A stretch of DNA of 64,000 nt, taken from positions 17,040,002-17,104,001 of the forward strand of contig NC_057719.1 in the NCBI RefSeq assembly GCF_004010195.1, given 5' to 3'. The position numbers and the translations under genes are program-made. Of this stretch, positions 30,857 to 63,454 are shown piece by piece. Under the pieces are notes generated by a model. It was not told where the DNA came from, made no database searches, and saw nothing but the letters and a program-made list of their open reading frames with translations. Origin of the DNA: Chiloscyllium plagiosum. Its lineage: Eukaryota. Numbering within the stretch: position 1 is the stretch's first letter; every line of letters begins with the position of its first letter.

Positions 30857-30960
30857 GGCGAAAGTGAGGACTGCAGATGCAGGCAAAAGCCTGAAATGTT
30901 GATTTTGCTGCTCCTTGGATGCTGCCTGACCTGCTGTGCTTTTCCAGCACCACACTCTTG
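30857..30960. mobile_element. Family A rearranged short element
   Basis: Inverted family A pieces; 17-bp TSD ACTCT(G/A)TCTAAAAAC(A/G)T at 30839-30855 and 30961-30977. Confidence 0.8.
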
Positions 30961-37535: not shown

Positions 37536-37737
37536 GAGAGTGTGGTGCTGGAAAAGCACAGCCAGTCAGGCAGCATCCGAGGAGCAGCAGAATCGATGTT
37601 TCAGGCATAAGCCCTTTATCAGAGCTTATGCTCGAAACATCGATTCTCTTGCTCCTCAGATGCTGCCTGACCACTGTGCTTTTCCAGCACCATTCTGTCG
37701 ACACTGATCTCCAGCATCTGCAGTCCGCACTTTCTCC
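37536..37737. mobile_element. Fold-back family A element
   Basis: Inverted arms; A-GAGC-TTAT-GCTC-GAAAC at 37621-37638; perfect 13-bp TSD CTACTTTTGTTTG at 37518-37530 and 37737-37749. Confidence 0.88.
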
Positions 37738-40700: not shown

Positions 40701-40859
40701 CATTTCTGTAAGACCCATCATTGGCTGCCTATCCCACTGTGGTTGTTAATGCTCCAGCACAGTCCTGGACTCACCAGGAATAGTAGGTTAATCTGAAGGT
40801 TATTTCGCCATGTTTAAAGTGATACTCCAAATGAAGCAACAGTGATGTAAGAAAGAAAC

Positions 40860-41055
40860 TGTTATTAGACTTCCGAATGGAACTTTCAAATTTCAAATTT
40901 AATGTTGACCTTGCTCTCTGCAGCAGTAACATTGTATTCCTGGCTCTGTTCTATAACTTTGATGCACTTTGTATGGTATGATCTGCCTGTACTGCATGCA
41001 AAACAAACTTTTCATTGTACTGAGATACATGTGACAAAAATAAATCAAATCAAAT
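40860..41055 (+). mobile_element. Rex1-type 3' tail fragment
   Basis: Matches 16540-16740 and 21495-21852; ends AAATCAAATCAAAT. Confidence 0.75.
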
Positions 41056-41460
41056 TACAAAAACCTCTTCACGCAGCAAGTAGCTAGGGTCTGGAATGTA
41101 CTACCTGGAAATATGGTCGAGACAGTTTCAATTGAAGCATTCAAGAGAACATTGGGTGATAATTTGGATAGAAATTGTGCATATGGATATGGAATAAAAG
41201 CAGGAGATGGGACATAGGGGATAGAACCAGCACAAGCATGATGGTCCAAATAGCCACCTTCTGCAGCTGTAACAATTCTGTGATTCTGCTGGAACACGTG
41301 GATGAAGAAAATGTCATTAAAAGTTAGACATTAGAAAATAAATAATGTTGTTTTATATTGGGCTTTTCTTTTTGATAATTGCCAATTTCATAGCTGGTTT
41401 CTCTGTGAGGCCTAGTGATTTTTTTTTGAGCCATTGTCACAAACTCCCCTCCTTAATTAT

Positions 41461-41747
41461 GGGTGGCACAGTGGTTAGCACTGCTGCCTCACACTGCCAG
41501 AGACCCGGGTTCAATTCTCGCCACAGGCGACTGGCTGTGTGGAGTTTGCACATTGTCTGCGTGGGTTTGCTCCGGGTGCTCCGGTTTTCTCCCACAGTCC
41601 AAAAATGTGCAGGTTAGGTGAATTGGCCATGCTGGATTGCCCGTAGTGTTAGGTGTAGGGGAATGGGTCTGGGTGGGTTGCACATCGATGGGACGGTGTG
41701 GACATGTTGGGCTGAAGGGCCTGTTTCCACACTAAGTAATCTAATCT
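41461..41747 (+). mobile_element. HE1-type V-SINE (tRNA-derived)
   Basis: Head GGCACAGTGGTTAGCACTGCTGCCTCAC, B-box GGTTCAATTC, V-domain CTGTGTGGAGTTTGCACATT..CCCACAGTCCAAA, and CR1-like tail GAAGGGCCTGTTTCC. Confidence 0.9.
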
Positions 41748-41924
41748 TAACCACCCCCATGGCATCCCTCTTGTCCAATGCTGACCTGATCCTACCACAT
41801 GCTGCAGCTGGGAGTACTCACCACCACTGACTAAAATTCTTGAATGTACCCTGTCAACAGTGCCATCTGTGAAGCACTGTCAGTCTTGAGCTACCCCGCA
41901 CGGTTTTGTACATTTGCCATGACA

Positions 41925-42760
41925 TGGCATGGAGGCCACCTGAAAGTCCCTACACATGGAGTGATGCAGTGGAGAGCTTTCCTATCCCCTCAGGACCACC
42001 AGAACAGGATATGAATCTAGATCCTGCCCGCTTGGTCCCAGTATCTATCAGCTTCTCTGCTGTGCCAGACTAAGTGCCACCACCTTTTTGCCACTTCACA
42101 TTCATTTTATCTCTGCAAATGCCGACCTCCCAGTCCTGCAGCCCTCTTGACCTGCTCTAGTAGCTGGCATTAATACATGGCTGCATCCCAAACATAAGAG
42201 CAGCTGCCAACACAGCACTTCGCCCATCCCCAGGAAATGGAGTTAGGGCCGATAGACTATGGTGTCTGTCCGGACCCTGTGCACTGTGAGAGCTCCCTGT
42301 GGCTGTGACCTCTGCACAAGCTGTCCTGCTGCTTATCCTGCTTCTGGGTTTGCTGTCAGCCCTGGTTCCTCCTGAATCTGCCTTCACCTTCTCTTGGAGG
42401 TAGCCACAGTGACCAGCATTGCATCCCACCAGCAGCCGGGCACAGGATGGTCACTCAGTTAGCATGTCTAAGGAGCAAAAGAGTTTTGTCAATCTCAATG
42501 TTGGAATACCATGCAGACAAGGCCTGCAGTCACCTCTCTGGACAGTGATCGCACGAGGGCCATGTCTCTATCGTTCATTCAGCTTTACCCTCAGTATGTG
42601 CACTAACTTGTTAAGAATGCCATGTCAGGTGACCACCGCATTACATCGCTGCACTCTGGAACCCTTCCCATTGCAGGCACATCAACTGTTCAACTTTTCA
42701 CAACATTCAGTACAAACCATCATTACACTTACAGGACAGAGGATAAAGCAAAGGTCTACA
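41925..42760 (+). mobile_element. Possible highly decayed PIF/Harbinger relic
   Basis: VTTALHRCTLEPFPLQAHQLFNFSQHSVQTII (about 42630-42725) loosely resembles the Harbinger transposase helix-turn-helix segment; 41930-42100 loosely resembles the Myb/SANT partner ORF. Weak resemblance only. Confidence 0.25.
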
Positions 42761-43364
42761 CCTCTCACAAAATGCTTGGAAATTGTGTGGGTGATGGTTC
42801 ACCTTTGACCAGCTTTGGCCTATTTTCAGTTATGGTTGCTCACTTCAACATCATTGAGATGCCAATGGTCTCTTTGCAAACACCAATTTGCAAGCTGTAA
42901 ATCATCTTTAACCAATGTTTGGCCCCTAACTATGCTCACTATTGCAAATGTACAATGAAATGATTACAAATTAATTGTATTCAGAGTTTGTAAATGCCTG
43001 CATCATGTCTTTGTCCCTTCAATGCCCCTGCACTTTTCAGTCAAAAGGACTCCCCTCATACTTGACATTCTCCCAGATATTTTCCAGTTGCATTTCACAT
43101 CTAGAGAATGACAAGTAATGCCAGAGAATGTAGCTCACACTGGACATCATCATCAGCAAGCTCTGCTGGGTTCTGACCCTCACCCTGAGCCTCCACATGA
43201 TCCATCAGCCCATTTGAAAACCTCCCACCTCCCAGCACAGTCATGTGGAGGGCCACGACATTGATCTTCACTCTGTGCTCTCCTCCCTGCCTCCTGAATT
43301 TTGACAATACCCACCCTGCTCCTCTATGTTCCTGCTGTGGAGAGACTGCTGATAACTCCCTATC

Positions 43365-43422
43365 TTGGTGCTCCTCGAATGCTGCCTGACCTGCTGTGCT
43401 TTTCCAGCATCACTCTAATCTA
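43365..43422 (+). mobile_element. Family A mini-insertion
   Basis: GCTCCTCGAATGCTGCCTGACCTGCTGTGCTTTTCCAGCA; TSD AACTCCCTATC at 43354-43364 and 43423-43433. Confidence 0.8.
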
Positions 43423-44528
43423 AACTCCCTATCATGATGTACCATGCCCTCTGATGCTGCATACCTCCCATTCACCCATCATCATCCCTGTCCCACCTTG
43501 AAGCAATGCCTTTGCTCTCCCACCATCAGCCTTGACAACACCCCGATCCTCCTGGAAGTGAACCACTTGCCACCTCGTGATCAACAGGTGGGCACCTACA
43601 TCTGCATTTGACCCAATCTCTGACCAATTTCAATCAGACCCCTGATGGCTGACTTTACAGATCCTCAACAACTGACGATACACCATTCCCTGCTCACTGA
43701 TATCAGCCCTCCGCAACTGACCATTGTCAACACCTTGAACTGTAGTCAGACAAATTACAAGAAAATGTCAGCAGGTCTGGCAGTGTCTGCAGACAGAAAT
43801 CAGAATTAACATTTCGGATCCACTTCTTCAGAACTGGAGGTGCAGTTGGTTCTGAGGCATTGTAGTTGAGATGTTGTTAGAGTCTATAGCTGTAACTGTT
43901 TCTAGCTTCTATTCTTTTATATCCAAACGTGCTCCGACACATGATTGATTCCCATCACCAAATCGCCCATAGAGTTTTTTCCATTTATTAACTGCCATCT
44001 TGAACAGAGGAATGCCCCTGACCAAGACCTTTGACTGTGTGCAGGCTGGTGCCTGTGACTGACTGCATTGAGATCCCCTAAAAGACAACATCTTGGCACC
44101 AATCTTGACTGGACCAGAGACTTGTCCCCTGCCACGTTCTGACATGGCTTTTTAGATGAATTAATATTCAGTGTCTTTGCTGTGCAGGAATCCAGCGCAT
44201 AATGTAGGTTTTGTCTCGACGTTTCAGTCTGCTGAACTGCAGGATAATGCCCCTCCCTTCCATACCCTGCTACCGACAAGCATGACACACAGTGTGCTAA
44301 CACTGGCATAGCACAGCCAGGCAGGGCATGGGATGCTGTGAGCATGAAACATAGGTTCTAGGTGAACAAGTGCTAAGATCCAGTCTCTGAGGTGGGGAAT
44401 CTGTCTCTTTACACAGTGGCCTTTTAATATTAGTGGCCATAGCGCTCTCCAGTGTTTCCAAAGCAGCTTGACAGTGGACCATGAGGGGTTGGCAAATGCT
44501 GGATACCAATATCCATGGGCATGGGGTG

Positions 44529-44656
44529 TTCCTGAAGAAGGGCTTATGCCCGAAACGTCGATTCTCCTGTTCCTTGGGTGCTGCCTGACCTGCTGCGCTT
44601 TTCCAGCAACACATTTTCAGCTCTGATCTCCAGCATCTGCAGTCCTCACTTTCTCC
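44529..44656 (+). mobile_element. Family A short element with intact hammerhead core
   Basis: TTC-CTGAAGA-A-GGGC-TTAT-GCCC-GAAACGTC-GAT at 44529-44562; ends CACTTTCTCC. Confidence 0.88.
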
Positions 44657-44879
44657 TAGGAAAGTTGTCGTGTCAATAAGATATTTAACAAGCTATAATC
44701 CCCTTTAATTGGAAACTCACTGCTGCCTAATGAAAAGTTCACCTCATCAGTAATTGCATAAAAAAGATGCAATGAGTTGCTCCCAAGGCCAAACTCAGCC
44801 TCACTGGGCTTCTCACATGAACCTGCCACAAAAATCTCACCATAGCCAACATCCCTCAGCACTCTAGAAGATTCCAACC

Positions 44880-45090
44880 TGATGGCATCCAAACTGAGTG
44901 TTAGTGAGCAGGTTAGTAGTAAAGTGTCCCTCATTAGCATTTTCAGCAACACCTTCATCTCTGTTTCAGAGTGGACTGATAGGACAATGATTGGCCTGAT
45001 TGGATCTGTCCTTTTGGTGAGCAAGATTTACCTTTCTACTTTGTCGGAGAGACGGCAGTGTTGTACCTGTGCTGGAACCTTTGCTAGAGG
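44880..45090 (-). mobile_element. Decayed LINE RT N-terminal relic
   Basis: The reverse complement resembles K.DKSNPANYRPISLL..KV.E..I..HL..NLLT..QFG; related relics probably continue to about 46050 and at 46690-47040. Confidence 0.5.
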
Positions 45091-46059
45091 AGCAACTGAA
45101 AAAAAGAAAGACATGCAGATGCTGGAAAAGCTCAACAGATCTGGCAGCATCTGTTGCAAGAAATCAGAATTTACGTTTCTGATCCAATGGCCCTTCTTCA
45201 GAATTAGAGATGCAGTTGGTTCTGGGGCACTGCAGTTGTGATGTTGTCAGAGTTTATAGCTTCACCTGCATCTAGTTTCTCTTTTTTTTGTAGCCAAAAG
45301 TGCTCCTACACACGATTGAATGTTTCTGTCTTATCAACAAATCTCCCATGGTTGTTTTTTCCACTTGTTATCTGCCACCAGTAAAATCACCTGAGTTTCT
45401 CATTGAATACTTTACATGCAATACCTGGATCTTGTGTCAATAACCATTTATTGCTAGCACCTGTGGACAATTTAATTAGCTGAAGTCTGGCATCTGTGAA
45501 GCTGGAGACCTCAAGAGGAGGTCAAGATGGAGTATACAGTGAGCAGTTTCAAATGCTTCAATCTTGTCTCATGCACTGACAAACTGATCTCCCCTTTCAT
45601 TCAGAATAAGGAAGTTTATGAAGCCTTTTCCTGCCTGCTTAGTTACCCACAATCATTCATGAGTAGAGATAGCAGGCTGCAGGTCTTTGTGATCCATTCG
45701 TTGTGGGATCGCTTAGCTCTAACAAAACATGCAACCTCCACTGTTTGAAATGCATGCAATCCTGTGTTTTAGCTTCACCAGGGTTGGCACCTTATCTTTA
45801 GGAATAGCTGGTGCTGCTCTGGGCGTACCTCTTGGACACCTTTTTAAACCGCAGTTGACTTCCTGGCTTGGTGGTAAAAGTTGAGCAGAGGATAGGTGCA
45901 ATGAGATCACACATTGAGACTGAGGGCAGTTCTGGTGATGCTGCTGAAGCCTTTAGTACGGCTTTATGGGCTTTGTGCTCATAAATTTGTTTGAATTAAT
46001 GCCTTGTAGCACAGTGGTGCCTGTAGTTAAATACAATACAATATGGAGGATGTCATCAC

Positions 46060-46680
46060 CAGAAGGATGTCTCCCTGCTATAGCAAAGATGTTGTAAAAC
46101 TTGAAAGGTTTCAGAAAAGACTTACAACTTCATCCCTGATGAAGGGCTCCGGCTTGAAACGTCGATTTTCCTGCTCGGGTGTTACCTGACCTGCTGTGCT
46201 TTCCCAGCAACACTCTCAACTCTGAATAGTCAGGATCCTTACTCCAGGGTAGGGAAGTCCAAAACTAGTGGGCATGGGTTTAGGGTGAGAGGGGTAAGAT
46301 TTAAAAGGAACATAGGTGGCAACATTTTTATGCAGAGGGTGGTGCATGTATGGAATGAGCTGCCAGAGGAAGGGGTGGAGACAAATGCAAGTTGCAGATG
46401 CTGGAATCCAAGGTAGACAAGCAGAGGCTGGAAGAACACAGCAAGCCAGGCAGTGCCAGGAAGTGGAGAAGTCATTGTTTCGGGAGTGACCCTTCTTCAG
46501 GAAGTGGTGGAGGCTGATACAATTACAGCATCTAAAAGGCACCTGGATGGGTATATGAATAGGAAGGGTTTCGAGCCAAATGCTGGCAAATGAGATTAGA
46601 TTTGTTTAGGATATCTGACCCATATGGATGAGTTGGACTGAAGGGTCTGTTTCCGTGCTGTACATCTCCACGACTCTACA
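46060..46680 (+). mobile_element. CR1/HER1-type 3' fragment with two nested hammerhead-type insertions (about 46130-46225 and 46381-46498)
   Basis: CR1 motifs AAAGATGTTGTAAAACTTGAAAGG, GTATGGAATGAGCTGCCAGAGG and tail GAAGGGTCTGTTTCCGTGCTGTAC. Confidence 0.85.
46381..46498 (-). mobile_element. Family C short element
   Basis: Reverse complement CTGAAGAAGGGTCACTCCCGAAAC; 14-bp TSD AGGAAG(G/T)GGTGGAG at 46367-46380 and 46499-46512; homologous to 46840-46965. Confidence 0.8.
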
Positions 46681-46839
46681 ACTACAAGATGCTTGCTCCA
46701 ACCATTAGTATCCTGAACAGAGCAGTCTGGTACAACTGAATAAATTCTGTACATTTGCTGTCCTTGCTATCTCCAATGTTTCTTCCAAGTGGTGTTCAAT
46801 GTAGAGGAATACCAACTCATCAATTGAAGGAGGGTTGTC

Positions 46840-46874
46840 AGTCCTGAAGAAGGGTTACACCTGAAACGTCGACT
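46840..46874 (+). ncRNA. Minimal type-I hammerhead ribozyme motif (family C element, 46840-46965)
   Basis: AGTC-CTGAAGA-A-GGGT-TAC-ACCT-GAA-ACGT-C-GACT: stem I AGTC/GACT and a 4-bp stem II; predicted cleavage after C46870. Confidence 0.75.
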
Positions 46875-47789
46875 TCTTCACCTCCTGATACTTCCTGGCT
46901 TGCTGTGTTCTTCCAGCCTCCTGCCTGTCTACTTTGGATTCCAGCACCTGCAGTTTTTTTTTGTCTCTGTAGGTGGTAATCAGCAGGAGATTTCCTTGGC
47001 TATGCTTGACCTAATTCCATGAGATCATTGTTTTTAGTTTATGACAACTAGATTATTCCCCACGAATGAGCTGCTTGAGTTACATGCTAGATAATAACCA
47101 CTGCATGTAAATCTTCCTTATGCTACAAAGTGCATTCTGTTTATACTGCATTCTGTTTGATATGTTACAGGTCCAAGGTAAGGCTAGAATACTTGATAAG
47201 TACCTTGTATTGGTCATTAGTAAAGAAAAGAATCCTGATAAAATGTCATTAGAAGTAGAGCTGGTCTAGATAATGGACAGGGTAAAATAAATAGTCAGGG
47301 TAATTGGAAAGGCTGCAATCCTCAGATTGGCTCAGCCATCTGGTCCAGATGCCTTGAAATAGCTTGGCCTGCTCTTCTGAGGGGAGATTTGTTCAGAGTT
47401 GCACAGAACTACAAATAGTTGGACAGGGTAGACAAAGAGAAACTGTTCCCATTAGCTGATGGTATAAGGACTTTGCAGACAGAAATCTAGGATATTTGGT
47501 AAGAGATAACAGAGGTGGTATGAGGGAGAATCTTTTTATGCAGCTAGTAAAATGAACCAGAACTCACTGACCATAAGAATAGTAGATGGATGACTTCAAA
47601 AGGAAATTGAATAGGTGCTTGAGGGATGGAGCAGGAGAATGGACACACTGGGTTGCTCTGTATGAGCTGGCATGGGGTTGTTGGTCCAACTTGTCTCTTT
47701 TTGTGTGATAATAAATTTTGACTCTAATGAACCCATACTTGGTTGAGACTCATGAGTAAAATAATACATTTTCAGCAGTATTAATAGGA

Positions 47790-48230
47790 AGATGAAAGAC
47801 TTTCATTTATATGGTGCCTTTGATGACTTCAGAAATTCTAAAACATGCTACCACCAATGAAGTGTCATCACTACTTCAATGCACAAAATGCAGTGACCTG
47901 TTTGCATGCCACGTGCCTACACAAATAGGAATGAGACATATGACAAAGTCATCCGTTTTAGCGTTGCTGAGTTGTGAACATTCACCAGAACAGCACAATA
48001 TGCTTCCCTGTCTTTCTTAAAGATTTAGTGTTATGGAATCTTTTTATGTCCACTTGAAAGCACAGGTGGAACCATAGTTTATCATTTATTTGGAAAGGTG
48101 TCACCTCCAACAGTCCACCACACCCTCAATACTGCACTAAAATGCTAACCTGGAATTTATGCTCAGGTCTCTGGAGCAGGCCTCAAACCTAGAATCTACT
48201 AACCCAGATGTCAGGGTATTTCTCTAAGGA
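47790..48230 (-). mobile_element. Deu-domain SINE relic
   Basis: GGTGTCACCTCCAACAGTCCACCACACCCTCAATACTGCACT is the antisense Deu motif. Confidence 0.55.
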
Positions 48231-48966
48231 TAATGTTAACTCCAGTGGATCCATATCAATAACAGTACTGACTCAGTGTACAGTACCTGGTTCTCATCAC
48301 AATATATGAATAATATGGTGCAGAAAGACATGCTTTAATCAGCGACCAATGTAAATTAATGTAAACCATAGTATGGAATGTCAGATTAAAAGAACTATAT
48401 CAATTCTTGTACAGGAAAAGGCATGAGCATCTTTAATCACGGTGGCCAAATATCTACCTAGGAAGTGGAGTGCAGGTGTTTCCGGGGGAGACTGAACGTT
48501 GTTTAGACAACAAAATATTTGGGAACTTGTAAATCAAAAATTCCTGTTTGTTTAAAAAAAAAATGGCCAGTTCAGGGACATGGTGAGACAATTTGGCAAA
48601 GTCAGTCATGATTTGTCAAAGATGTGGCACGCCTAATTTGTTTTCTTGTTGCCTGTCTGGCCAATAATTCAGAAATTCCTAACTATTGCAACTTTCAGCA
48701 GATTTATGACCATTTTGGTTAGCAAATTGGCCACCGATTTAAATTGCTGCTGGCCATCTGGGGCGAAAGTAGCTTGTACCTTCAGAGTGGCGTCAGGCAT
48801 TGTTTTCATTGAGCTTTAAGACACTAGTTGGTATCATAAACCACAATGCTGCACTGAAATCTTTCTACTCTTGTAATTGCATGACTTCTGTTGACAGAAA
48901 ATTGCAGTAAATTTGGACTTCTTTGAAATTATCCTTGCATTTCTAGGAAAGCAAAGCTCTTCCAGT

Positions 48967-49165
48967 AACAGAAACAAAAATTGCTGAAAATTCTCAGCAG
49001 ATCTGGCAGTATCTCTTCAGAACTATTCTGAAGAAGGGTCACTGGATCTGATTGATTTTGCTTTCTCTTCACAAATGCTGTCAGACCTGTTCAGCTTTTC
49101 CAGCAATTTCTGTTCTTGTTTCTGATTTCCACAGTTCTTTCTTTTTTGTTGTTGTTGTTGTTGTT
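48967..49165. mobile_element. Fold-back short element, family D (degenerate hammerhead)
   Basis: Inverted arms around CTGAAGAAGGGTCACTGGATCTGA (49028-49051); TSD AAAGCT(C/T)TTCCAGT at 48953-48966 and 49167-49180. Older relatives occur at about 38190-38420 and 59480-59730. Confidence 0.75.
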
Positions 49166-49319
49166 TAAAGCTTTTCCAGTGCCTCTTTTTGATTCATTCA
49201 TGGGATGTGAACAACACTGAGTAAGTCAGCATTTTATTTGCCCAGAGGCCAGTTAAGAGTTAACCACATTGCTGTGAATCTGGAGTCACACATAGGCCAG
49301 AGCAGCAGTATCTTCCCAA

Positions 49320-49775
49320 AAGGAACTTTCTCCCCGTAACCCTTGATACCCTTGACAATTAAGATCCTATCTCTCTGTCTTAAAGATAACTCAATTACCT
49401 GGCCTCCACAGCCTTCTGTAGCAGTGAATTCCATAGAAGAAGTTCCTCCTTATCTCCGTTCTAAAAGTTTTCCTTTTACTCTAAGAGTGTGCCCTTGGGT
49501 CCTAGTCTCTCCTACCAATGGAAACATCTTCCCAACATCCACTCTGTGCAGGCCATTCAGTATTCTGCAAGTTTCAAATAGATTCCAACCCCCCACCCCC
49601 CTCCAACCCTCATCCTTCTAAACTCCATCAAGTACAGACGCAGAGTCCACACATGTTCCTCATATTTTAAGTTTTTCATTACAGAGCCTCAGAGGTATGC
49701 TTTTATATTCAAGTCCCCTCAAAATAAATGCCAACATTGCATTTGCCTTCCTAACTATTGACTCAAGTTTACCTC
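49320..49775 (-). mobile_element. CR1 LINE fragment (same subfamily as 54565-56690)
   Basis: High similarity to 54715-55230. Confidence 0.8.
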
Positions 49776-49882
49776 GAGAGAAACCTGTGCTGAGAAGGTT
49801 AAGGGAAATTTCAATAGAGGTTCATAACCCAAAAGGTCGTAACCCCTGTTCAGAATTTAAAAGACATCCCTTGATTAACAGT

Positions 49883-50142
49883 GGGCAGCACGGTAGCACA
49901 GTGGTTAGCACTGCTGCCTCACAGCACCAGACACCCAGGTTCAATTCCCACCTCAGGCAACTGTCTGTGTGGAGTTTGCATATTCTCCCTGTCTCTGCAT
50001 GGTTTTCCGCCCACAGTCCAAAAATTGGCCATGCTAAATTGCCTGTAGTGTTAGGTGAAGGGGTAAATGTAGGAGAATGGGTTTGGTGGGTTGCTCATCG
50101 GAAGGCCGAAGGGCCTGTTTCCATACTGTAAGTAATCTAATC
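49883..50142 (+). mobile_element. HE1-type V-SINE
   Basis: GGGCAGCACGGTAGCACAGTGGTTAGCACTGCTGCCTCACAGCACCAG..GGTTCAATTCC..; homologous to 41461-41747. Confidence 0.9.
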
Positions 50143-50366
50143 AAAAAACCAGACAGATTTTCTTGACAATCAGTAATAGTTTCATGGCCACCATGAGATT
50201 CCTAATTCCATATTTTAATTGAAGTTATATTCTAACATTTGCCCTGGTTTGGTTTGAACCAAAATACTCTGGGGAGAAAGTGAGGTCTGCAGATGCTGGA
50301 GATCAAAGTTGAAACTTTATTGCTGGAACAGCACAGCAGGTCAGGCAGCATCCAGGGAACAGGAGA

Positions 50367-50400
50367 TTCGACGTTTCGGGCACAGGCCCTTCTTCAGGAA
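50367..50400 (-). ncRNA. Minimal type-I hammerhead ribozyme motif (antisense arm)
   Basis: Reverse complement reads TTC-CTGAAGA-A-GGGC-CTGT-GCCC-GAAACGTC-GAA. Confidence 0.75.
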
Positions 50401-50408
50401 GGCTTCAG

Positions 50409-50446
50409 GATTCCTGAAGAAGGGCCTGTGCCCGAAACGTCGAATC
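50409..50446 (+). ncRNA. Minimal type-I hammerhead ribozyme motif
   Basis: GATTC-CTGAAGA-A-GGGC-CTGT-GCCC-GAA-ACGT-C-GAATC: stem I GATTC/GAATC, stem II GGGC/GCCC, GUC triplet with predicted cleavage after C50441. Confidence 0.8.
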
Positions 50447-50540
50447 TCCTGTTCCCTGGATGCTGCCTGACCTGCTGTGCTGTTCCAGCAATAAAGTTTC
50501 AACCAAAATACTCTGGAACATTATCTGGCTCTCCAGATGC

Positions 50541-51488
50541 AATTCAAGATTATCCCAGAAATATACATTGTCACAGATTTTATACATCATTGAAGGGAGA
50601 TGGTAGACAAAGCCAAGATGTGACTTTAAGAGCCTTTCAACTCTAAATAGTCTAGCAATAACACAATTTGGCTACCACATCTCCCTTCCAGAGTTCCAAT
50701 TTGTTTCCAACTCAGAAATAAGCCATTTGGCTCATCAGGTCCAGGTTTCTGTTAATGTTTCATTTAAGCTTCCTCCCCCATTATTTCATCTAACCCCTAC
50801 AACGGTCCTCTTTCTTTCAACCCTCTTGTTCTAACCTAGCTTACCGCAAACATATGAATGCCTTACCTATTCCATATTGTCGCAAGTTCCCTATTTAAAT
50901 CACTTTTCAGGCAAATCAATTTCTGTAATATTCCCAATGAACATTTCCAGCTCTGATCTCCAGCATCTGCAGACCTCACTTTCTCCTCAAATATTCCATA
51001 TTGTCGCAAGTTCCCTATTTAAATCACTTTTCAGGCAAATCAATTTCTGTAATATTCCCAATGAATTCATCATCCAAGGTTTTGGTCCCAATGTTCATTC
51101 AAAATACTTCACACATTTGAATTTTGGGTGAAAAAAACTCTGATCTTTAACTGTTTTAAATTAAGAACTTATCGGTTCCCACTTCATAGATTAAACCTAT
51201 TGGTGAACAGCTCCTTCATATCATGTATGCCATCTACATGTTACTTAGCTATGTTCTAGTGATGGGCAGGAGTAGAGTCATAGGATTTGGTTTGAAAATT
51301 AATGTTCCTATTCTGCTTCCAAAATCTAACACCCAGTGGATTCACAGTAAAAATAAGGCAACAGAATTCAAAGAATTTGAGAACTGAGCTCAAAGGCTCT
51401 TAAAATGACATCTTGGCTTTGTCTAACATCCCCCTTCAATGATGTATGAAATCTGTAACAATGTACATTACTGGGATGGTCTTGAATT
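50541..51488. repeat. About 97-bp inverted repeat pair (50541-50637 / 51392-51488)
   Basis: AATTCAAGA..CATCATTGAAGGGAGATGGTAGACAAAGCCAAGATGT..TAAGAGCCTTT versus its reverse complement at 51392-51488, roughly 85% identical by eye. Confidence 0.85.
50868..51065 (+). repeat. Perfect 74-bp direct repeat flanking a 50-bp family A terminus
   Basis: 50868-50941 equals 50992-51065; between them lies CTCTGATCTCCAGCATCTGCAGACCTCACTTTCTCC. Confidence 0.92.
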
Positions 51489-51508
51489 AAATCCCTTGTA
51501 AAACAGAA

Positions 51509-51738
51509 TTAAAAATCACACAACACTAGGTTATAGTTCAACAGGATTATTTGGAAGCTTTCAGAGCATTTAACCTCCATCAGGTGGTTGTGGAAGATAA
51601 GCTTAACTCCCACAGCTACCTGAAGGAGGACCAGCACTCTGCAAGCTAGTGCTTCCAAATAAACCCATTGACTATAACCTGGTGTTATGTGACTTTTAAT
51701 TTTGTCCACCCTATGTCCATACTGACACCTTCAAATCA
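51509..51738. mobile_element. Fold-back family B element, decayed
   Basis: Homologous to 19235-19504; TSD TGTAAAACAGAA at 51497-51508 and 51739-51750. Confidence 0.82.
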
Positions 51739-53379
51739 TGTAAAACAGAAGCAGTTCATTGCTGGTAGTTTTTGCAAATAAGGAACGGGAATGAAGTTGA
51801 CTTCAAGAAAGAGTTTGGTTCTACCTAAGGTGTTCAATTAATATAAATCAGGCACAATAGACCAGAAATTGGATCAGTTGACCCCTGCTTTATGAACAAG
51901 CCCCAGGTTGAAAATGTTGTCTCATTGTCACTGGAGAGCTTGAAAAGTGTCCAGTCTGAAATTGTGTCAAGGATTTCTTGGGCACCCCTGGGGCTGAAGA
52001 GATAGCAAGACCCATAAGTTTGTAGATGACAGAGTAAAGGCTAACTTTCAAAAGAGGTTTGGATACATAACACACAAATGTAATGGAGGCTTACAGTGGA
52101 ACACAAACCCACAGCCAAAAAGGTGAGCCATTTAACTATGGGAGTGATTATAACAAAGTGGAATTTAATTCAAAATTAGATAAAGGGTACATAGCAGAAA
52201 TATTGGTGTGGAGAAAACATATTAGCATATTGCACAGTTTATTTCGAAAGAGGAATAATTTTGAGAATTATTCAAAGCTAATATCTTTGACTCCAATAAG
52301 TATTTTCACGAGATTTCCAATTAATTCAAATGTTACCTCAACAAGAGTACCTGGATATTAGGAAATGGGCCACACAGCAAACTATAGATGAGAATTGTTT
52401 TCTCATTAAATTATTCAAAAGCTAGGAGGTAAATGCAGTCAAACAAAATTAATACTTTCAAAATGCAATAATTCTTCACTTACTGTTGGCTCAGTCAATA
52501 TTCTTTTGCTGAAATATCACTGGTAAAAAGGGAACATGTAGGTTACTATTGCTGCAACGTTCTGTATAACATTGCTGTACCTTGTTCTGCTCATTCCAGA
52601 TTGAACTTCTGAGATTTATCTTGAGCAGAATCATACAGTCCCCAAGGGAAGGGTTATACACAGTAAACCCATCAAATTTCATTGATACTGTTCCCACTGC
52701 CTATTTGCAACACACCCCACCCCCACCCCCAACCCTGTGATTTAACAGGCAATGTTTGGAGAAGCTTTAGGTAATCTACCTTCATACATTTAAGCGAGCA
52801 ATTAATGGATACTTTGGAGCCACTGCACATTGGGCTGAAACATTTTGCCTGGCAGGAGGAGGTTGGAGATGGGCAGTCACCCTGGTGGATAGGCCTGCTT
52901 GGATTTCAACCAGGAAATAGGGATGGCTTCCTTCACAGGACCTCTTTTATATTGGAGGAAACCCTGCAGCACCTCTCCTACACCAAACTCCTTAGGTTTG
53001 CCCCCTTCAGGTGTCAGCTCTGTCCCAGCCCTTGTAACACAGCCCTCAAAGCCAAATCCCTCTCCTACCGCCAACCCCTCAGGTGTCTCCTACCTTGGTT
53101 GTGCTTCACTTCACAGCCTACTTGGTATCCTGCTCCTGACTCTTCATCTTTAGGCACGGGTGCAAGTGAACAGAGACCCGTGGTGGCACTGCTAATGACT
53201 AGATTGGCTGGCGGTGGTTCTTGTTCCCCATTGGGGTTTTAAATAGCTCCAGGGCAGGCTGCTGGAACAAGGCACATTTTTAGTGATAATGGGGAAGTAT
53301 TGCATGGAAAACATATCCATGTGTAAATTCCTGACCCATGGTTAAGAACTTAAATTTCCACAGTTTTTATTGGTCACAG

Positions 53380-53700
53380 AAACATAGGGTTATACAACAC
53401 AGAAACAGATCTTCCTGTCCAACTTGTCCATGCTGACCAGATGTCCTAAGCTGATCTAACCTATTTGTCAGCATTTGGCTCATATCCCTCTAAACTCTTC
53501 CTATTCAGATATCCATCCAGATGTCTTGTAATTGTACCAGCCTCCACCACTTCCTCTGGCAGCACATTCCATGCATGTACCACCCTCACCTTCTGTGTGA
53601 AAACGTTGTCCCTTAGGTCCCTTTTAAATCTTTTTCCTCTTACCTTAAACATTTGGCCTCGAGTTTTGGACTCCCCCATCCCAGGGAAAAGACCTTGTCT
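53380..53700 (-). mobile_element. CR1/HER1-type 3' end
   Basis: ORF 53461-53766 reads SKTRGQMFKVRGKRF..VVHAWNVLPE. Confidence 0.88.
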
Positions 53701-55864
53701 ACGAACGCTGTAGCCTGAGTAGTGACCAATCTCTAGATCACATTGGGTTAAAAACTGAATATTCATGACATAGTTTCAATAATATTCAAGAAAGCCATGG
53801 ATTTCTCACTAATAATAAATGTCACATTAAGTATGATCTGCAGCTGTGGGAATAATAGCCAAATGTTTACATTGCAGAGATTTTATTATTTACAAAAGAT
53901 GTGTATTTCCCAATTCCACTGTAGTTTTCTTCCTCTTTGATCTCCATCTCCTCATTATGACAGCTCATGTTCAATGGGCAGTGACTTTTCTCTGTCAGTT
54001 GACTAAAGAGCAACTTTATACCTGTGACATTAAGAAGTAACACCAGAGAACTGAGCCCTATTGGGCTTACTGTCAAATTCCATAGATCAGCCATGATCTC
54101 GTTGAATGGTGGTACAGACTCAAGGGGCTGAATGGCCTACATCTGTTCCTATTGTCCTCATATCCTTATCTGCCCTTTCCCAATATCTTTTGAAATGTAC
54201 CTATCTTTAAAGAGTGATCAATATTCTTGATTGTTCTGTGTTGGATTATATGAATCTCTAACTGATCTATGCCAACTGCACTTAATTAATTGGGCATTGA
54301 TTCAGAGCAAAATAAACAGACACCATAGAAGCAATAAAAGTTTGATCTAGAGTGAAGGTGTTGATACTTTGAAGCATTGTAACTAAAGTTCCTGCATGCT
54401 TGGAAGCTAATATCATCTCTGTATTTGTTTAAGATAAATATATAAAATATATAACAATGTTGCGTAGTATCACCAGGCAATCAATTCTACAATCACTGTT
54501 CAATGGTGATTGAGAAACAGAATCCAAGGCACATTTCTTCAACCCAACCTCGGGATAGTGATAAGACCATAAGACATAGGAGCAGAAATTAGGCCATTCA
54601 GCCCATCGTGTCTGCGCTGTACCTCTCTACAACTCTATAATCATTCTATCATGGCTGATAGGGTCTTGAGGATCAAGGGTTACGGGGAGAAAGTGGGAGA
54701 ATGGGGTTGAGAAACCTATCTATCTCAGTCTTAAATATACTCAATGACCTGACCTCCACAGCCTTCTGTGGCAATGAATTCCATAGATTCACCACTTTTT
54801 GGCTGAAGAAGTTTCTCCTTATCTCTGTTCTAAAAGGTCTTCCGTTTACTCTAAGACTATGGCCTCGGATCCTAGTCTCTCTTACCAATGGAAACATCTT
54901 CCCAATATCTACACTGTCTAGACCATTCAGTATTCTGTATGTTTCAATTACACCTTCCTCTCATCCTTCTAAATTCCATCAAATTGAAACCTAGAGTCCT
55001 CAAACTTTCCTCATATGTTAAGCTTTTCATTCCTGGGACCATTCTCGTGAAAGTCCTCTGAACATGCTCCAGGGCCAGAACTTGCCTCCTGAGGATATGG
55101 GGCCCAAAACTGCACACAATACTCCAAACTCTAGTCAGAACCAGAGCCTTATAGAGCCTCAGAAATACATACCCGCTTTTATATTCAAGTCCTCTCAAAA
55201 TAAATGCCATCATTGCATTTGCCTTCCTAATCCTGGACTAGAACTCCTAAGTCTCTTTGCACTTCAGATTTCTGAATTTTCTCCCCATTTAGAAAATCGC
55301 CCATGCCTCTATTCTTCCTACCAAAGTGCATTACCTCATATATTCCCACATTGTACTCCATATGCCACTTCTTTGCCCACTCTCCTAACCTGTCCAAATC
55401 CTTCCACAGACTCCCTGCCTCCTCAAAGCTATCTATCCCTCTACCTATCTTTGTATCATCTGCAAACTTAGCCAGAATGCCCTCATTTCCTTCATCCAGA
55501 TTGTTAATGTATAAAGTGAAACGTTGCAGTCCCAACACTGAGCCTTGCGGAACACCGCTTGTCACCGGCGGCCGTCCTGAGAAGGGCCCTTTTATCCCTG
55601 CTCTCTGCTTTCTGCCAGACAGCAAGCTTTTGTCCATGCCTGCACCTTGCTTCTGACACCATGGGCCCTTGCCTTACTCAGCAGCCTCCTGTGAGGCATA
55701 TTGTCAAAGACCTTATTGAAGTCCAGGCAGATAACATCCATTGGCTCTCCTTGCTCTAACCTGCTCATTACTGCCTCAAATCATTCTAGCAGATTTGTCA
55801 GGCATGACCTCCCCTTGAAGAAACCATACTGACTTTGCCCTATTTTACCATACACTTCCAAGTA

Positions 55865-56023
55865 CAGAGGAACCTCGATTATCCAAAGGATATGGGCAGG
55901 GAGTATTACACTAGGTTAATCAAATGCCGGATAACATAGTTTAGCCGAGCATCGGGATCTTGCCATCTTTCCGTATCAACCAAAATAAGGACAATGGAAT
56001 TTTGGATAATCGAGGTTCCTCTA
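55865..56023. mobile_element. Tigger/pogo-like MITE (Tc1/mariner superfamily)
   Basis: 23-bp terminal inverted repeats CAGAGGAACCTCGATTATCCAAA / TTTGGATAATCGAGGTTCCTCTA (one terminal mismatch), flanked by TA at 55863-55864 and 56024-56025. Confidence 0.88.
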
Positions 56024-57322
56024 TATTCAGAAATCTCATCCATCACAATGGATTCTAGGATCTCTTGCCCATGAGAGATGTTAGGCTAATTGGTCCATAA
56101 TTTTCCATCTTTTGCCTTGCTCCCTTTTTAAACAGGAGTGTCAGCGATTTTCCAGTCCTCTGGGACCCTCCCTGATTCTAGCGATTCCTGAAAGATCACC
56201 ATTGTTGCCTCCACTATCTCTTCACCTATCTCCCTTAGAACTCTGGAGTATAGTCCAGCTGGTCTAGGTGATTTATCCACCTTCAGGCCATTCAGGTTTT
56301 CTAGCACGTTTTCCTTGCTGATGGCCTCCATACTCAGCTCTGCCTCCTCACTCTCTTGAATGTTTGCGATTTTGGGATATAACTTGTGTCTAATGCAAAG
56401 TAATTATTCAGTTCCTCAGCCATTTCCTTGTTCCCCACTACTGCTTCTCTAGCGTGATTGTTTAGTTGCCCAATGTTCACCTTTGCCTGTCTTTTGCCCT
56501 TTGTATATCTAAAGAAACTCTTGCAGTCTTCTTTTATATTACTGGCTAGCTTACCCTTATATTTCATCTTCTTCCTCCATATTTCTTTTTTGTTGCCCTT
56601 TGTAAGTCTTTGTAAACTTCCCAATCTTCTGGTTTACCCACTGCCCTTTGCTACATTATATGATTTCTCTTTTGCTTTTATACAGCCATAGGGTCATAGA
56701 GATGTATAGCACAGAAACAGACTCTTCGGTCCAACTCGTCCATGCCGACCAGATACCCAACCCAATTGAGTCCCACTTGCCAATACCTGGCCCATATCAA
56801 CAATCCAGAATTGCTTCAGGTGTGCAATTTTCTTTGAAGCTAAGACAGGGTGGCTGGCAAAGTGTACAAGGCACCAAACTGCATTACCAGTGCTGAAGCG
56901 TTCAATAACTTAGACTCATTGCATGGCTATTTTTAGCAGGTTTCCAATACAAATGCATGAGTGTTACTGGACCAGCTTTCCAGTGCTGCAGAGAAAGAAT
57001 AATTGTCAAGATGAACCAACTGCCATTAAAATCTATTTTAAATGTCATCTAGTGAGCACATATGCCTATCAATGTTTTAGACTGTAGTCTATTGCTTGAA
57101 TTTTGATTATGGGCAATTCTATAAATAAAGACAAGTTTTCAGATATATTGATTCTGATTTTTTAAAAAAAGAATGATAATCAGTGATGCACACAGACATT
57201 AAAAAATACAACTCATTACCATGCAAGTCACAGGCCATGTTATCCCTGACTTCCCTAGTCAGCTACGGTTGCCTCATCCTCCCTGTACTATGTTTCTTTT
57301 TCCTTGGTTGAATCTCTGCTGT

Positions 57323-58454
57323 TGAAACTTTATTGCTGGAACAGCACAGCAGGTCAGGCAGCATCCAGGGAACAGGAGATTCGACGTTTCGGGCACAGGC
57401 CCCTCCCCGCCTCCATCCTACTCCGGCCTATCGCCTTCGCCTTGGCCTCTTTCCGCCTATCGCATTTCCGGCGCCCCTCCTCCGGGTCCCTCCTCCCTAC
57501 CTTTTGTCTTCTCCTGCTGAACACTCTCTGGGTTTGTAGTTTGTGGTTTCTACTACAAATCAACCGACTCCCACAGCTACCTGGACTACACCTCCTCCCA
57601 TCCTGCCCCCTGTAAAAACGCCATCCCATTCTCCCAATTCCTTCGTCTCCGCCGCATCTGCTCCCAGGAGGACCAGTTCAAAATACGTACAACCCAGATG
57701 GCCTCCTTCTTCAAGGACCGCAATTTCCCCCCCCACGTGGTCGACGGTGCCCTCCACCGCATCTCCTCCACTTCCCGCTCCTCCGCCCTTGAGCCCCGCC
57801 CCTCCAACCGCCACCAGGACAGAACCCCACTGGTCCTCACCTACCACCCCACCAATCTCCATGTACAGCGCATCATCCGCCGTCACTTCCGCCACCTCCA
57901 AACAGACCCCAGCACCAAGGATATATTTCCCTCCCCACCCCTATCAGCTTTCCGTAGAGACCACTCCCTCCGCGACTCCCTTGTCAGATCCACACCCCCC
58001 ACCGACCCAACCACCACTCCCGGCACCTTCCCTTGCAACCGCAGGAGGTGCAACACTTGCGCCCACACCTCCCCCCTCACTTCTCTCCAAGGCCCCAAAG
58101 GAAAATTCCATATCCGCCACAGATTCACCTGCACCTCCACCCACATCATCTACTGCATCCGCTGCAGCCGGTGTGGCTGCAGTCTTCTTCTTGACCTCTC
58201 CGCCTCCATCCTACTCTGGCCTATTGCCTTCGCCTTGGCCTCTTTCCGCCTATCGCATTTCCGGCGCCCCTCCTCCGGGTCCTCCTCCCTACCTTTTGTC
58301 TTCTCCTGCTGAACACTCTCTGCTCATTCCTGGGGAGGGGCCTGTGCCCGAAACGTCGAATCTCCTGTTCCCTGGATGCTGCCTGACCTGCTGTGCTGTT
58401 CCAGCAATAAAGTTTCAACTTTGATCTCCAGCATCTGCAGACCTCACTTTCTCC
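57323..58454 (+). mobile_element. Penelope-like element (Neptune-type), young, rearranged
   Basis: Open frame 57551-58177 reads YYKSTDSHSYLDYTSSHPAPCKNAIPFSQFLRLRRIC..PCNRRRCNTCAH..IIYCIRCSRCG (RT thumb, Cys-rich linker, start of GIY-YIG). It has direct terminal-repeat copies at 57408-57530 / 58201-58322, an inverted copy at 57321-57408, and a perfect 15-bp TSD TTGAATCTCTGCTGT at 57308-57322 and 58455-58469. Confidence 0.93.
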
Positions 58455-58740
58455 TTGAATCTCTGCTGTGTCTCCTGAATTACTCCCATAAACTCCTTCC
58501 ATTGCTGTTCCATTGTCTTTCCTGCTTGGCTCCTCTCCCAGTCAGTTCTACCCAGCTCTTCCCTCATGCCTCTGTAGTTGCCTTTATTCAGCTGTAATAC
58601 TGTTACCTCTGATTCTATCTTCTCCCTCTCAAACTGCAAATCATATTATGATCACTGCCTCCTAAGAGTTACTTTACTTTAAGCTCCCTTACTAAGTCTG
58701 TCTCATTGCACAACACTAAATCCAGTATTGCCTGTTCCCT

Positions 58741-58858
58741 GGAGAAAGTGAGGTCTGCAGATGCTGGAGATCAAAGTTGAAACTTTATTGCTGGAAAAGC
58801 ACAGCAGGTCAGGCAGCATCCTCGTGGGAGCACGAGGTAGCGCCGATACAGTCATCTA
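58741..58858 (-). mobile_element. Family A insertion with extra unassigned sequence
   Basis: Family A terminus at 58741-58821; TSD TGTTCCCTG at 58733-58741 and 58859-58867. Confidence 0.78.
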
Positions 58859-60299
58859 TGTTCCCTGCTCCATCTTGAAGACATTCCACAAATTCCTTTC
58901 CTTGCAATCCACTACCAACCTAATTTTCCAGTGCACCTGCGTATTGAAACCCCCATGATCACTGTAACTTTGCCTACACATCTTTTCTATCTCCTAGTTC
59001 ATTCTAGTGATGATTGCAGCTACAATCAGTTCATTTAGAGCTTGGATATAATTCTCAACAAAAGGTTAAAGCCCAACGGCAACTTAATGTGAACCAGAGG
59101 ACATTATTGTATTTGTCCTCTGAGGAGCAGAGTGCGACAAAGGTTGAGAGACGAGTAGTCAATGGTTGAATAGTAGATTGGTTAGAATGGATAACTATTC
59201 TGGAAGCTTTGTTTTTGATTATCTCCGAAGTTTGTTAGGTTTCTTTACAGTGTGGTTTCAATCAAAAGATGAAACAACAGTGGAAGCTGTGCAGAATGTG
59301 TGGACTTTCCAGTTGTTTATGAATCTGAATAGTTCAGTGTCACCCCATGTGGTACGTAAACCCACAGATCCATCTTGGGTGTCCTTGTTTTCAATATATG
59401 CATCATGTTCTGACTGTGTTAATGCAAAGTCTGAGGCTTGATCCAGAACGGGAAGAATTTATTTCTCGGACAAATAATGTGATGCTGGAAATCTGAAACA
59501 AACACAGGAAATTGCTGGAGAAACTTAGTCGATCTGAGAGCATCTGTGGAGAGAGAAACCTTTTGAGTCCAGCTTCTTCTCTGTGTTTACATAAGGATTT
59601 ATTTCTGGTAATTGGTCAATATCCTGAAGTGTTAACTCTCTTTCTCCCTCCACGGATGCTGATCATTTCCAGTATTTTCTGTTTTTATTTAAGACTGTCA
59701 GCATTTGCAGAACCTTGCTTGTGTTTCTTGTTTCCCCTGAATTAGTCAAAATGCCACTCATCTCTTTTTTGGATTCTGGCTCATGCCCCGGGAATAATTC
59801 ACAGCAGAGGATGGCCATTTGGGTGGTTTTCAAGGCTTTGTTTTCATAAAACAAACCGTGCTGCTCTGAAATGTATGGAAATCCCTCTGTCCCGGAGTAG
59901 AAATCCAGTGGGAGACATTCTTTTTGTGCCTGGCAATATGGTTCAAAAACGTTGAGGTTGATGGAATGATGATCTCTTATCTAGCTAATCAGGATTTTGG
60001 GATAATTAAGTTTCCAGTGTTACTCAGTCCCCAGCACAAAACTGTCTAAAAATTGCTGGAACACTGTACTCTAACTCATACAGGCTGAAGAAAATTCCAC
60101 AGATGCTACAGGTGATATTAATCTTATAACATAGTTAACCATTTTTATGCCAGAATGAAGCCTCACTGCGCAACCACCCTCCTGTTATATTCAATCGTGC
60201 AGTGCGCCACACTGAGTAAAATGGAGATGTGCTCCATCCAGATTTACTGTACTGAAGTGCAGAAACCTTTCTGAAACCATTGGTTTCAGCCAATGTAGA

Positions 60300-63035: not shown

Positions 63036-63454
63036 CAGCTACTAGAAGAGGTACTTTGTTTGCTGTAAAGTGTTTTGTGACATTCAGAGGCTGCAAAAGA
63101 GTTTATAGAAGTGCCGATACTTTATTTTTATTCAAGGCTGAGCGATCACTTACTGCAGCGGCTTTGGTCAATGCTTCACAAAAGAAAAAAACCTGAAACA
63201 ATCAGGCAGGTTTTTGACTGGTATGTTCAGCTTTTAGTGGACCTGTCACTGCACTGATTAATGGGCCAGTGAAAGGCGAAATTCAATTTGGTCACCCAAA
63301 GGTTCACCCTACACATCTGCTGCTGGCTCTTTTCAAAAATATTACCCTATGGTAACTGCATTTGTAAGGCGAAGTAATTGGCCTTTGAGCTATGAACTAA
63401 CATAACCTGTGCATCCGCATCCAGAATGTTGAAGAGGAGTGCATTGTTTTGAAA

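What the first reader, a model, noticed from the sequence alone, without database searches (positions are those of the whole stretch)
50367..50446. Dense set of hammerhead-ribozyme-bearing mini-retroelements; best intact ribozyme pair is here
Seen: 50409-50446 folds as stem I (GATTC/GAATC), core CUGAAGA, one extra A, stem II (GGGC/GCCC), GAA, ACGU, then C. A second copy sits on the opposite strand at 50367-50400. The core recurs, intact or decayed, at about 806, 9011, 11739(-), 12897(-), 19382, 21637, 29635, 32208, 44532, 45201(-), 46136, 46500(-), 46844, 49028, 58330 and 63536(-). Established: CUGANGA..GAAA..UH is the hammerhead core, and Penelope-like elements carry minimal type-I hammerheads in their terminal repeats. 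Inference: the terminal repeat alone has spread as a very abundant non-autonomous, ribozyme-headed element (more than 25 insertions in 64 kb), which repeat annotation would probably label as a SINE or MITE. I cannot tell whether this has been described in sharks.
Basis: partly seen in the sequence, partly recalled or inferred. Interest (0 to 1): 0.85.

Follow-up and report, generated by a model that had tools for sequence, protein, structure and literature searches.

The report
Penelope retroelement leader copies with hammerheads
The hammerhead motifs are real and belong to short end-pieces of Penelope-like jumping genes, a known kind, and most pieces start about 30 bases after a TATA-like box, so they are likely dead-end DNA copies of the first 95-130 bases of the element's own RNA rather than a separate self-spreading element.

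Summary
Observation confirmed. The motif is a minimal type-I hammerhead; 11 strict matches in the window against 0.03 expected; 37 arms of four families, about 28-29 insertions. They are ends of Neptune-type Penelope-like elements (PLEs): the same sequence follows RT + GIY-YIG reading frames in the window and genome. This kind is published (Cervera and De la Peña 2014). Corrections: the two copies at 50273-50503 are one head-to-head insertion with a 16-bp target duplication; a transcript folds into a 93-bp hairpin that buries the ribozyme; native stem I is 4 bp. Copies do not start at the cut site (3 of 100). 55 of 100 start at -7..+2, at an initiator-like A 30 nt after a conserved AT-rich box, in two unrelated families, and end at two fixed sites just before the ORF start. 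Likely they are cDNAs of the transcript's 5' leader (inferred, about 0.6); a cap-G test was negative and RNA reads were uninformative. The scan already noted this family and its 5' pile-up on other DNA; the promoter geometry is what I add. Interest 0.35.

The parts
50257..50272 (+). left copy of the 16-bp target-site duplication
   Evidence: identical to 50501-50516
50273..50400 (-). inverted arm: hammerhead core (C3 at 50397, 5' end at -3, 3-bp stem I) + about 90 nt + 35-37-nt PLE 'tail' (about 50273-50307)
50401..50409 (.). junction between the arms; supplies the non-native G50409 that makes stem I look 5 bp long
   Evidence: vs parent upstream sequence
50410..50503 (+). direct arm without tail; begins at the putative +1 A (50410)
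   Evidence: 93 nt 100% complementary to 50308-50400
50410..50445 (+). minimal type-I hammerhead: stem I 50410-50413/50442-50445, core 50414-50420, extra A 50421, stem II 50422-50433, GAA + ACGU palindrome, predicted cut after C50441
50501..50516 (+). right copy of the target-site duplication (first 3 nt shared with the element end)
57308..58469 (+). 1.1-kb insertion of the same young family: inverted tail-less arm 57321-57405, RT thumb/linker/start of GIY-YIG 57548-58198, 3' UTR, damaged hammerhead at 58330, tail, 15-bp duplication at 57308-57322/58455-58469
12773..13800 (-). older 5'-truncated PLE: linker and GIY-YIG remains, 3' UTR, hammerhead at 12897, tail (upstream limit approximate)
731..63536 (.). 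span holding the other short arms of families A, B, C and D (37 arms in all)

Best explanation
These are short insertions of the hammerhead-bearing end of Neptune-type Penelope-like retrotransposons, and most are likely dead-end cDNA copies of the first 95-130 bases of the element's own transcript. Shown: the unit is the last part of the element's 3' repeat; in tandem copies the same unit continues into the ORF start about 160 nt after the core; 3' ends fall at two fixed sites (about +90 and +125, the 'tail'); 5' ends pile up just upstream of the core. Inferred: (1) a promoter in the repeat (AT-rich box at -30, initiator A as +1) starts RNA at the first base of hammerhead stem I, so the ribozyme heads the 5' UTR; (2) the PLE protein nicks the target and starts reverse transcription internally at the two sites, as shown in vitro for an anole PLE; (3) starting at the transcript's first such site, it reaches the RNA's 5' end after 95-130 nt and the product is joined by 1-4 nt of microhomology; (4) priming from both strands gives the head-to-head form with a tail on one arm; (5) the products leave the box behind and rarely spread further. 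The template is uncleaved RNA. The ribozyme would cut only as a dimer or with the protein's help, and a cut would remove about 32 nt with the cap.
For: PLE parent: 726-754-aa natural frames with Pfam RVT_1 above cut-off and GIY-YIG just below it, CX4CXXC linker, hammerhead 156 nt after the stop. ORF start after the tail aligns with residue 1 of a full-length relative (38% over 26 aa, E 1e-4). 5' ends of 100 arms: 55 at -7..+2, 14 further upstream, 31 downstream, 3 within 2 nt of the cut site; 3' ends 38 at +88..+93, 53 at +122..+128, 9 between. Genome-wide exact counts: core 11,888; to -4 8,383; to -10 4,324. Family C: to -8 4,446, to -12 2,805; 20 of 30 ends at -9..+3. TATAAA starts at -38 or -40 in 26 of 35 family-C copies with native upstream DNA, TTATCY at -34 in 50 of 66 family-A copies: 30-32 nt before the A at -8 and 30 nt before the A at -4. 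Target duplications abut the -4 end with no foreign exon in 9 of 11 solo copies. Tail on exactly one arm in 34 of 36 short inverted pairs; arm subtypes agree in 30 of 31 typed pairs. Poseidon-like families E and F keep upstream sequence through the hammerhead (9 copies seen), so the fold does not by itself stop copying.
Against: No direct RNA evidence: 738 reads of one single-cell run lie on both strands, 0.9 run on into unrelated flanks, no pile-up of starts or ends; a second run gave 0 reads. An untemplated G opposite a cap was seen in only 1 of 11 solo copies with a duplication. The 5' limit also lies within 0-2 nt of the possible edge of stem I in A and C1, so a structure-based stop is not excluded. 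The family-A box is not a canonical TATA. Subfamily C1 is more spread (12 of 30 ends at -10..+5). In Drosophila Penelope the start site lies well upstream of the hammerhead (PMC2377424, PMC4209133). Counts are dominated by one subfamily (39 of 66) and are not independent.
Confidence: 0.6

Rival explanations
1. The RNA starts further upstream, and the 5' pile-up comes from reverse transcriptase stalling, or a 5'-3' nuclease being blocked, at the edge of the folded, protein-bound hammerhead.
For: The limit follows the 5' edge of stem I to within 0-2 nt in families A, B, D and C1; no cap-derived G; the anole PLE protein acts on the hammerhead region (PMC11167929).
Against: A box at fixed -30 spacing in two unrelated families is not predicted by this model. 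Family C2 has only 3 contiguous stem-I pairs (a bulged extension to -7 is conceivable), yet 1,641 of 4,446 copies drop out between -8 and -12. E and F copies pass through their hammerheads (few copies).
Confidence: 0.22
2. The short unit is an independent non-autonomous element (SINE- or retrozyme-like) with its own master copies.
For: Internally deleted 224-bp and 320-bp units with shared junctions recur at several loci, often in tandem; a 2026 preprint derives animal retrozymes from PLE repeats and finds them in one chondrichthyan.
Against: Such extended forms are 364 exact hits against 22,414 for the common part. Short copies carry the same diagnostic bases as the coding element, are dispersed rather than tandem (no array in the window), have ragged 5' ends, and lack the upstream box.
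Confidence: 0.1
3. The boundary is a splice acceptor or reflects copying from an antisense, self-primed template, as proposed for rotifer and fly Penelope.
For: Families B and D have CAG at -5..-3; the fly intron ends at helix I (PMC4209133); palindromic junctions were read as self-priming on an antisense template (PMC3846280).
Against: Family A has no AG there; no common upstream exon is joined, the target duplication abuts the element; no joints in the laid reads.
Confidence: 0.05
4. The copies are reverse transcripts of self-cleaved or circularised ribozyme products.
For: The catalytic core and the dimer palindrome are conserved across families.
Against: A cleaved template would start at +28; only 3 of 100 arms end within 2 nt of it, and most keep the core upstream of the cut.
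Confidence: 0.03

Closest known systems
Minimal hammerheads (min-HHR) in pLTRs of metazoan PLEs (Cervera and De la Peña 2014, PMC4209133)
   Same: Type-I core, extra base after A9, G10.1-C11.1 pair, palindrome in place of helix III, short stem I, thousands of dispersed single motifs from truncated PLEs, some as close pairs on opposite strands.
   Different: Sharks are not named in the parts I read or in the one supplement searchable; the density here (about 20 arms per 64 kb) is far above the 4,000-9,000 motifs reported for coelacanth and Xenopus with their descriptor; no account there of a fixed 5' limit.
Canonical EN+ PLE insertion unit, Neptune clade (Craig et al. 2021, PMC8557442; Arkhipova et al. 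2013, PMC3846280)
   Same: RT + Zn-finger-like linker + C-terminal GIY-YIG, heavy 5' truncation, adjacent inverted copy, 30-40-bp tail at one end, target duplications.
   Different: Truncation here is concentrated at one point, so most insertions are only 95-130 bp; the ORF starts about 38 nt after the tail, whereas in the rotifer Pen2a the repeat and tail include the first codons.
Anole Poseidon PAc (Frangieh et al. 2024, PMC11167929)
   Same: Two internal start sites bounding the tail, downstream of the hammerhead; uncleaved RNA as template; both strands primed.
   Different: PAc's ORF begins in stem II; here it begins about 160 nt downstream. The paper does not map the transcript start or discuss short leader copies in the parts read.
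Non-LTR retrozymes (Li, Clavereau, Pollet 2026, bioRxiv 10.64898/2026.07.22.740005)
   Same: Non-coding, PLE-repeat-derived, hammerhead in each unit; the 224- and 320-bp tandem units here fit.
   Different: The bulk here are dispersed monomers or head-to-head pairs, not tandem arrays.

Membership tests
Minimal type-I hammerhead (min-HHR) | Core CUGANGA ... GAAA ... UH with helix II and G10.1-C11.1 | tested here: met
Minimal type-I hammerhead (min-HHR) | Extra nucleotide after A9; palindromic 15-16 region | tested here: met
   A50421; ACGU in A, B, E, F and AGCU in C (the two family-D copies chosen were decayed)
Minimal type-I hammerhead (min-HHR) | Helix I of 4-5 bp, covarying between families | tested here: met
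   ATTC/GAAT, AGTC/GACT, AGTT/AACT, CAC/GTG; subfamilies A2 and A4 carry a U-U mismatch
Minimal type-I hammerhead (min-HHR) | Self-cleavage as dimer or with protein | not testable with these tools
   In silico the double-hammerhead dimer is 5 kcal/mol above an alternative dimer; no cut ends in reads
EN+ Penelope-like element | One ORF with RT and C-terminal GIY-YIG upstream of the repeat | tested here: met
   (RVT_1 32-35 bits, above cut-off; GIY-YIG 21.5-21.7 vs cut-off 22.6); relatives carry PF00078, PF26215, PF01541
EN+ Penelope-like element | Inverted 5' copy, 30-40-bp tail at one end, target duplication | tested here: met
EN+ Penelope-like element | Complete repeat-ORF-repeat copy | tested here: inconclusive
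   All 12 long copies fetched are 5'-truncated or rearranged; the ORF start was seen only in short chimeric copies
Neptune clade | CX2-5CXXC linker before GIY-YIG (shared with Nematis) | tested here: met
   definition from PMC8557442
Neptune clade | Placement in the RT phylogeny | not tested
Non-LTR retrozyme | Tandem units each with a hammerhead | tested here: not met
   no such array in the window; met only by minority 224/320-bp units elsewhere
Non-LTR retrozyme | Circular RNA from double cleavage | tested here: inconclusive
   no joints listed in 4 runs, which were not suited to the test
SINE | tRNA/7SL/5S-derived head with a pol III promoter and a poly(A) or simple-repeat tail | tested here: not met
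   no Rfam match; the unit is PLE sequence from end to end
MITE | Fixed terminal inverted repeats and short fixed-length duplication | tested here: not met
   junctions differ between copies, arms unequal, duplications 7-16 bp

The most novel reading that the evidence does not exclude
The genome holds on the order of a million natural 5'-RACE products of Penelope-like transcripts: transcription starts on the first base of hammerhead stem I, 30 nt after a TATA-like box in the element's 3' repeat, and internal priming at the first start site copies only the leader. This would explain the 'massive' solo hammerheads of animal genomes as a by-product of PLE priming, make full-length copies promoterless unless a truncated copy lies upstream, and cast the ribozyme as a switch that decaps the element's own mRNA.
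Probability: 0.55. Interest if true: 0.55.

Novelty: new member of a known kind. Interest (0 to 1): 0.35.

Why it matters
The class is known, so the catch itself is not surprising to a PLE specialist. What is useful is the anatomy: it places the start of the PLE RNA, the ribozyme, the two priming sites and the start codon in one order for a vertebrate Neptune-type element, from genomic copies alone. The role of PLE hammerheads is an open question; if the ribozyme is the first 36 bases of the mRNA, its cut would remove the cap, which is directly testable. It also means that about 20 arms per 64 kb (206 in 647 kb) of shark DNA would be mislabelled as SINE, MITE or miRNA-like hairpins, and that most genomic hammerhead hits here are passengers: 9 of 115 family-A arms keep core, both stems and palindrome.

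Tried and rejected
Rfam: no hammerhead model matches. DNA search of the genome with the 90-nt arm returned nothing because common words are skipped; exact patterns were used instead. Pfam found nothing on the three window fragments; it needed longer copies. Cleavage-defined 5' ends: rejected. Cap-derived G: G is at -5 in 47 of the first 100 listed copies that end at -4 (A 43, T 10; counted by eye), but in the 30 inspected it came mostly from inverted junctions; 1 of 11 solo copies had an untemplated G. A downstream promoter element like that of fly Penelope: spacing is not kept between families, not claimed. A recalled link to MER6 was dropped: the listing concerns the V-domain SINEs (listing only). 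Sequencing runs: no holder on record as RNA; the lay was uninformative for starts, cuts or circles. No complete repeat-ORF-repeat copy found among 12 long loci. Lünse et al. on dimer cleavage was not held; I know it only through a review. No tree, structure or complex was run; none would change the verdict.

Full report
Positions are counted from C3 of the hammerhead core (CUGA; 0 = window 50414 on the + arm). The predicted cut lies between +27 and +28. The host is probably a shark: the best named protein hits are from Chiloscyllium, Rhincodon and Stegostoma.

1. Observation. The sequence at 50409-50446 is as described and folds into stems I and II around an unpaired core (z = -1.6). CTGANGA alone is not enriched (55 vs 45.9). 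The full descriptor (core, one extra base, helix II of 3 bp or more, GAAA, two bases, UH) hits 11 times in the window against a mean of 0.03 in 100 controls. With eight natural seeds, BLAST finds 37 arms in the window and 206 in 647 kb made of the window and 60 unselected 10-kb stretches from three contigs (115 A, 43 C, 38 D, 10 B). If that sample is typical the 3.56-Gb genome holds about a million arms (extrapolation). The exact 36-base core of the youngest subfamily occurs 11,888 times.

2. The locus. 50273-50503 is one insertion between 16-bp direct repeats. It has a minus arm of 128 nt ending in a tail and a plus arm of 94 nt without it, head to head. Any transcript holds one sense and one antisense copy and folds into a 93-bp hairpin (-208 kcal/mol), so the two motifs cannot form a double hammerhead. 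The G that gives the fifth pair of stem I is junction sequence; the parent has C and a 4-bp stem.

3. The parent. In the window, two arms (58330 and 12897) lie directly downstream of RT-thumb, linker and GIY-YIG remains. That peptide finds 150 scored genomic copies at 92-100% identity, the cap of the search, and 105 longer proteins, many with PF00078, PF26215 and PF01541. A near-complete natural copy (L081) has an RT with YIDD, a CX4CXXC linker, GIY-YIG, and the identical hammerhead 156 nt after the stop. The linker marks Neptune or Nematis (PMC8557442, passages); only Neptune and Poseidon were found in vertebrates in the 2026 preprint (parts 1-3 of 5 read). No tree was built. In 30 copies chosen for running past the tail, the sequence continues into an ATG about 38 nt after the tail whose peptide aligns with residue 1 of a 909-aa relative. 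So hammerhead and tail are both the 3' end of an insertion and the 5' UTR of the next ORF.

4. Ends of the copies. I took the first 100 exact matches of a downstream 28-mer (of 22,414) and extended each against natural copies. 3' ends: 38 at +88..+93, 53 at +122..+128, 9 between. This is the PLE tail, which Frangieh et al. traced to two internal start sites of reverse transcription (PMC11167929, parts 1-2 of 4 read). 5' ends: 55 at -7..+2 (mode -3/-4), 14 from -13 to -898, 31 downstream, of which 3 lie within 2 nt of the cut. Whole-genome counts agree: 11,888 cores, 8,383 reach -4, 4,324 reach -10. In 36 short inverted pairs the tail is on exactly one arm in 34; the two exceptions come from the set chosen for post-tail extension. 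Arm subtypes agree in 30 of 31 typed pairs. Solo copies have 7-13-bp duplications that abut the -4 end in 9 of 11 cases. Column identity falls 3-5 nt upstream of the core in families A, B and D too.

5. What sets the 5' limit. Not the cut. In A, B and D the sequence at -6..-1 reads TCATTC, TCAGTC, TCAGTT, which fits the initiator consensus with A(-4) as +1 (consensus and the -30 TATA spacing are recalled, from no call). Family C, unrelated downstream, has its limit near -8: 20 of 30 young copies end at -9..+3 (ends beyond +6 were excluded by the pattern), and counts fall from 4,446 to 2,805 between -8 and -12. Its older subfamily is more spread (12 of 30 at -10..+5). In copies that keep native upstream DNA, TATAAA begins at -38 or -40 in 26 of 35 family-C copies, and TTATCY at -34 in 50 of 66 family-A copies (-36..-32 in 59), the only strongly AT-rich island in a C-rich UTR whose neighbouring bases differ between subfamilies. 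Both boxes lie 30-32 nt before the limiting A. Poseidon-like families E and F keep upstream sequence through their hammerheads (9 copies). Against: no cap-derived G (1 of 11); stem I could reach within 0-2 nt of the limit; RNA reads show passive read-through only.

6. Mechanism. Shown: items 2-4 and the boxes. Inferred: transcription starts at stem I; the PLE protein primes at +90 or +125 of the transcript's first repeat and runs off the RNA's 5' end; priming on both strands gives the inverted form; products lack the box and are mostly dead ends. A full-length copy would need priming in a downstream tandem unit and would itself be promoterless, which fits the known need of PLEs for partial tandems (PMC6765202, passages). 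I put this at 0.6, a structure-based stop at 0.22, independent masters for the bulk at 0.1. Recurrent 224- and 320-bp internally deleted units show that such masters exist as a minority (364 exact hits for any post-tail extension).

7. The ribozyme. Across 13 natural copies of six families the core is kept, position 7 varies, stems I and II change in pairs, and the palindrome is ACGU or AGCU (families were found through the core, so core conservation is partly built in; the two D copies were decayed). Individual copies are mostly broken: of 115 family-A arms, 62 reach the core start, 30 keep core and stem II, 9 also keep stem I and palindrome. Activity is untested. Published min-HHRs do not cut as monomers and cut weakly as dimers (PMC4209133, parts 1-2 of 4); the anole one needs the protein; 1 of 9 frog dimers cut in the 2026 preprint.

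8. Prior work. Minimal hammerheads in PLE repeats, their mass occurrence as single motifs of truncated PLEs and as opposite-strand pairs are in PMC4209133. Inverted copy and tail are in PMC8557442 and PMC3846280 (passages); an internal promoter in the repeat in PMC2377424 (passages). Seven literature searches found no shark-specific description and no account of a fixed 5' limit; the 2026 preprint includes one chondrichthyan, and its supplements, the first supplement of PMC4209133, Repbase and Dfam could not be seen and may hold these families. This scan noted the family and the 5' pile-up several times on other DNA; those notes are not independent support.

9. Verdict. Real, abundant, new member of a known kind; interest 0.35. 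The leader-copy reading, if confirmed by start-site mapping, would deserve about 0.55.

Noticed in passing
window 50861-51065: A 45-nt piece of the same family (end of the unit plus tail, 50942-50989, + strand, no hammerhead) sits between two copies of an 81-nt direct repeat: an unusually long duplication for this family.
   Followed up: partly
window 57400-57525 and 58198-58310: The long insertion has lost most of its GIY-YIG region and carries a second, partial copy of the 3' UTR in front of the ORF piece, suggesting template jumps during one insertion.
   Followed up: partly
L135-L138, L159, L160; G000:C8:24157651-24158520: Internally deleted mini-PLE units of 224 and 320 bp with shared junctions at distant loci, up to five in tandem; retrozyme-like minority.
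   Followed up: partly
L034:837, L143:284, L148:969, L193:4740, L069:660, L091:838, L241:5910: Two further hammerhead families (E, F) with longer stem II, Poseidon-like by recalled resemblance; their copies keep upstream sequence.
   Followed up: partly
L081:5001-5516: A 120-bp piece of the PLE ORF is repeated about four times at the 5' junction of a near-complete copy, keeping the frame open; the element is inserted into a SINE-like repeat.
   Followed up: no
window 49880-50145: A tRNA-headed SINE-like repeat (resembles the shark HE1/V-SINE kind; label recalled, not tested).
   Followed up: no
window 3567-4996(-), 55227-55673(-), 60286-62137(-): Broken reverse-transcriptase frames of CR1-like LINEs (label recalled).
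   Followed up: no
window 50338-50473: The head-to-head junction scores against several miRNA precursor models by hairpin shape alone, all far below the gathering score; such insertions are a plausible source of double-stranded RNA.
   Followed up: no
L163-L192 flanks: The target continues with AT after the duplication in 5 of 9 solo copies, giving microhomology with the element's first bases; resembles the ATT preference of the anole PLE nuclease.
   Followed up: partly
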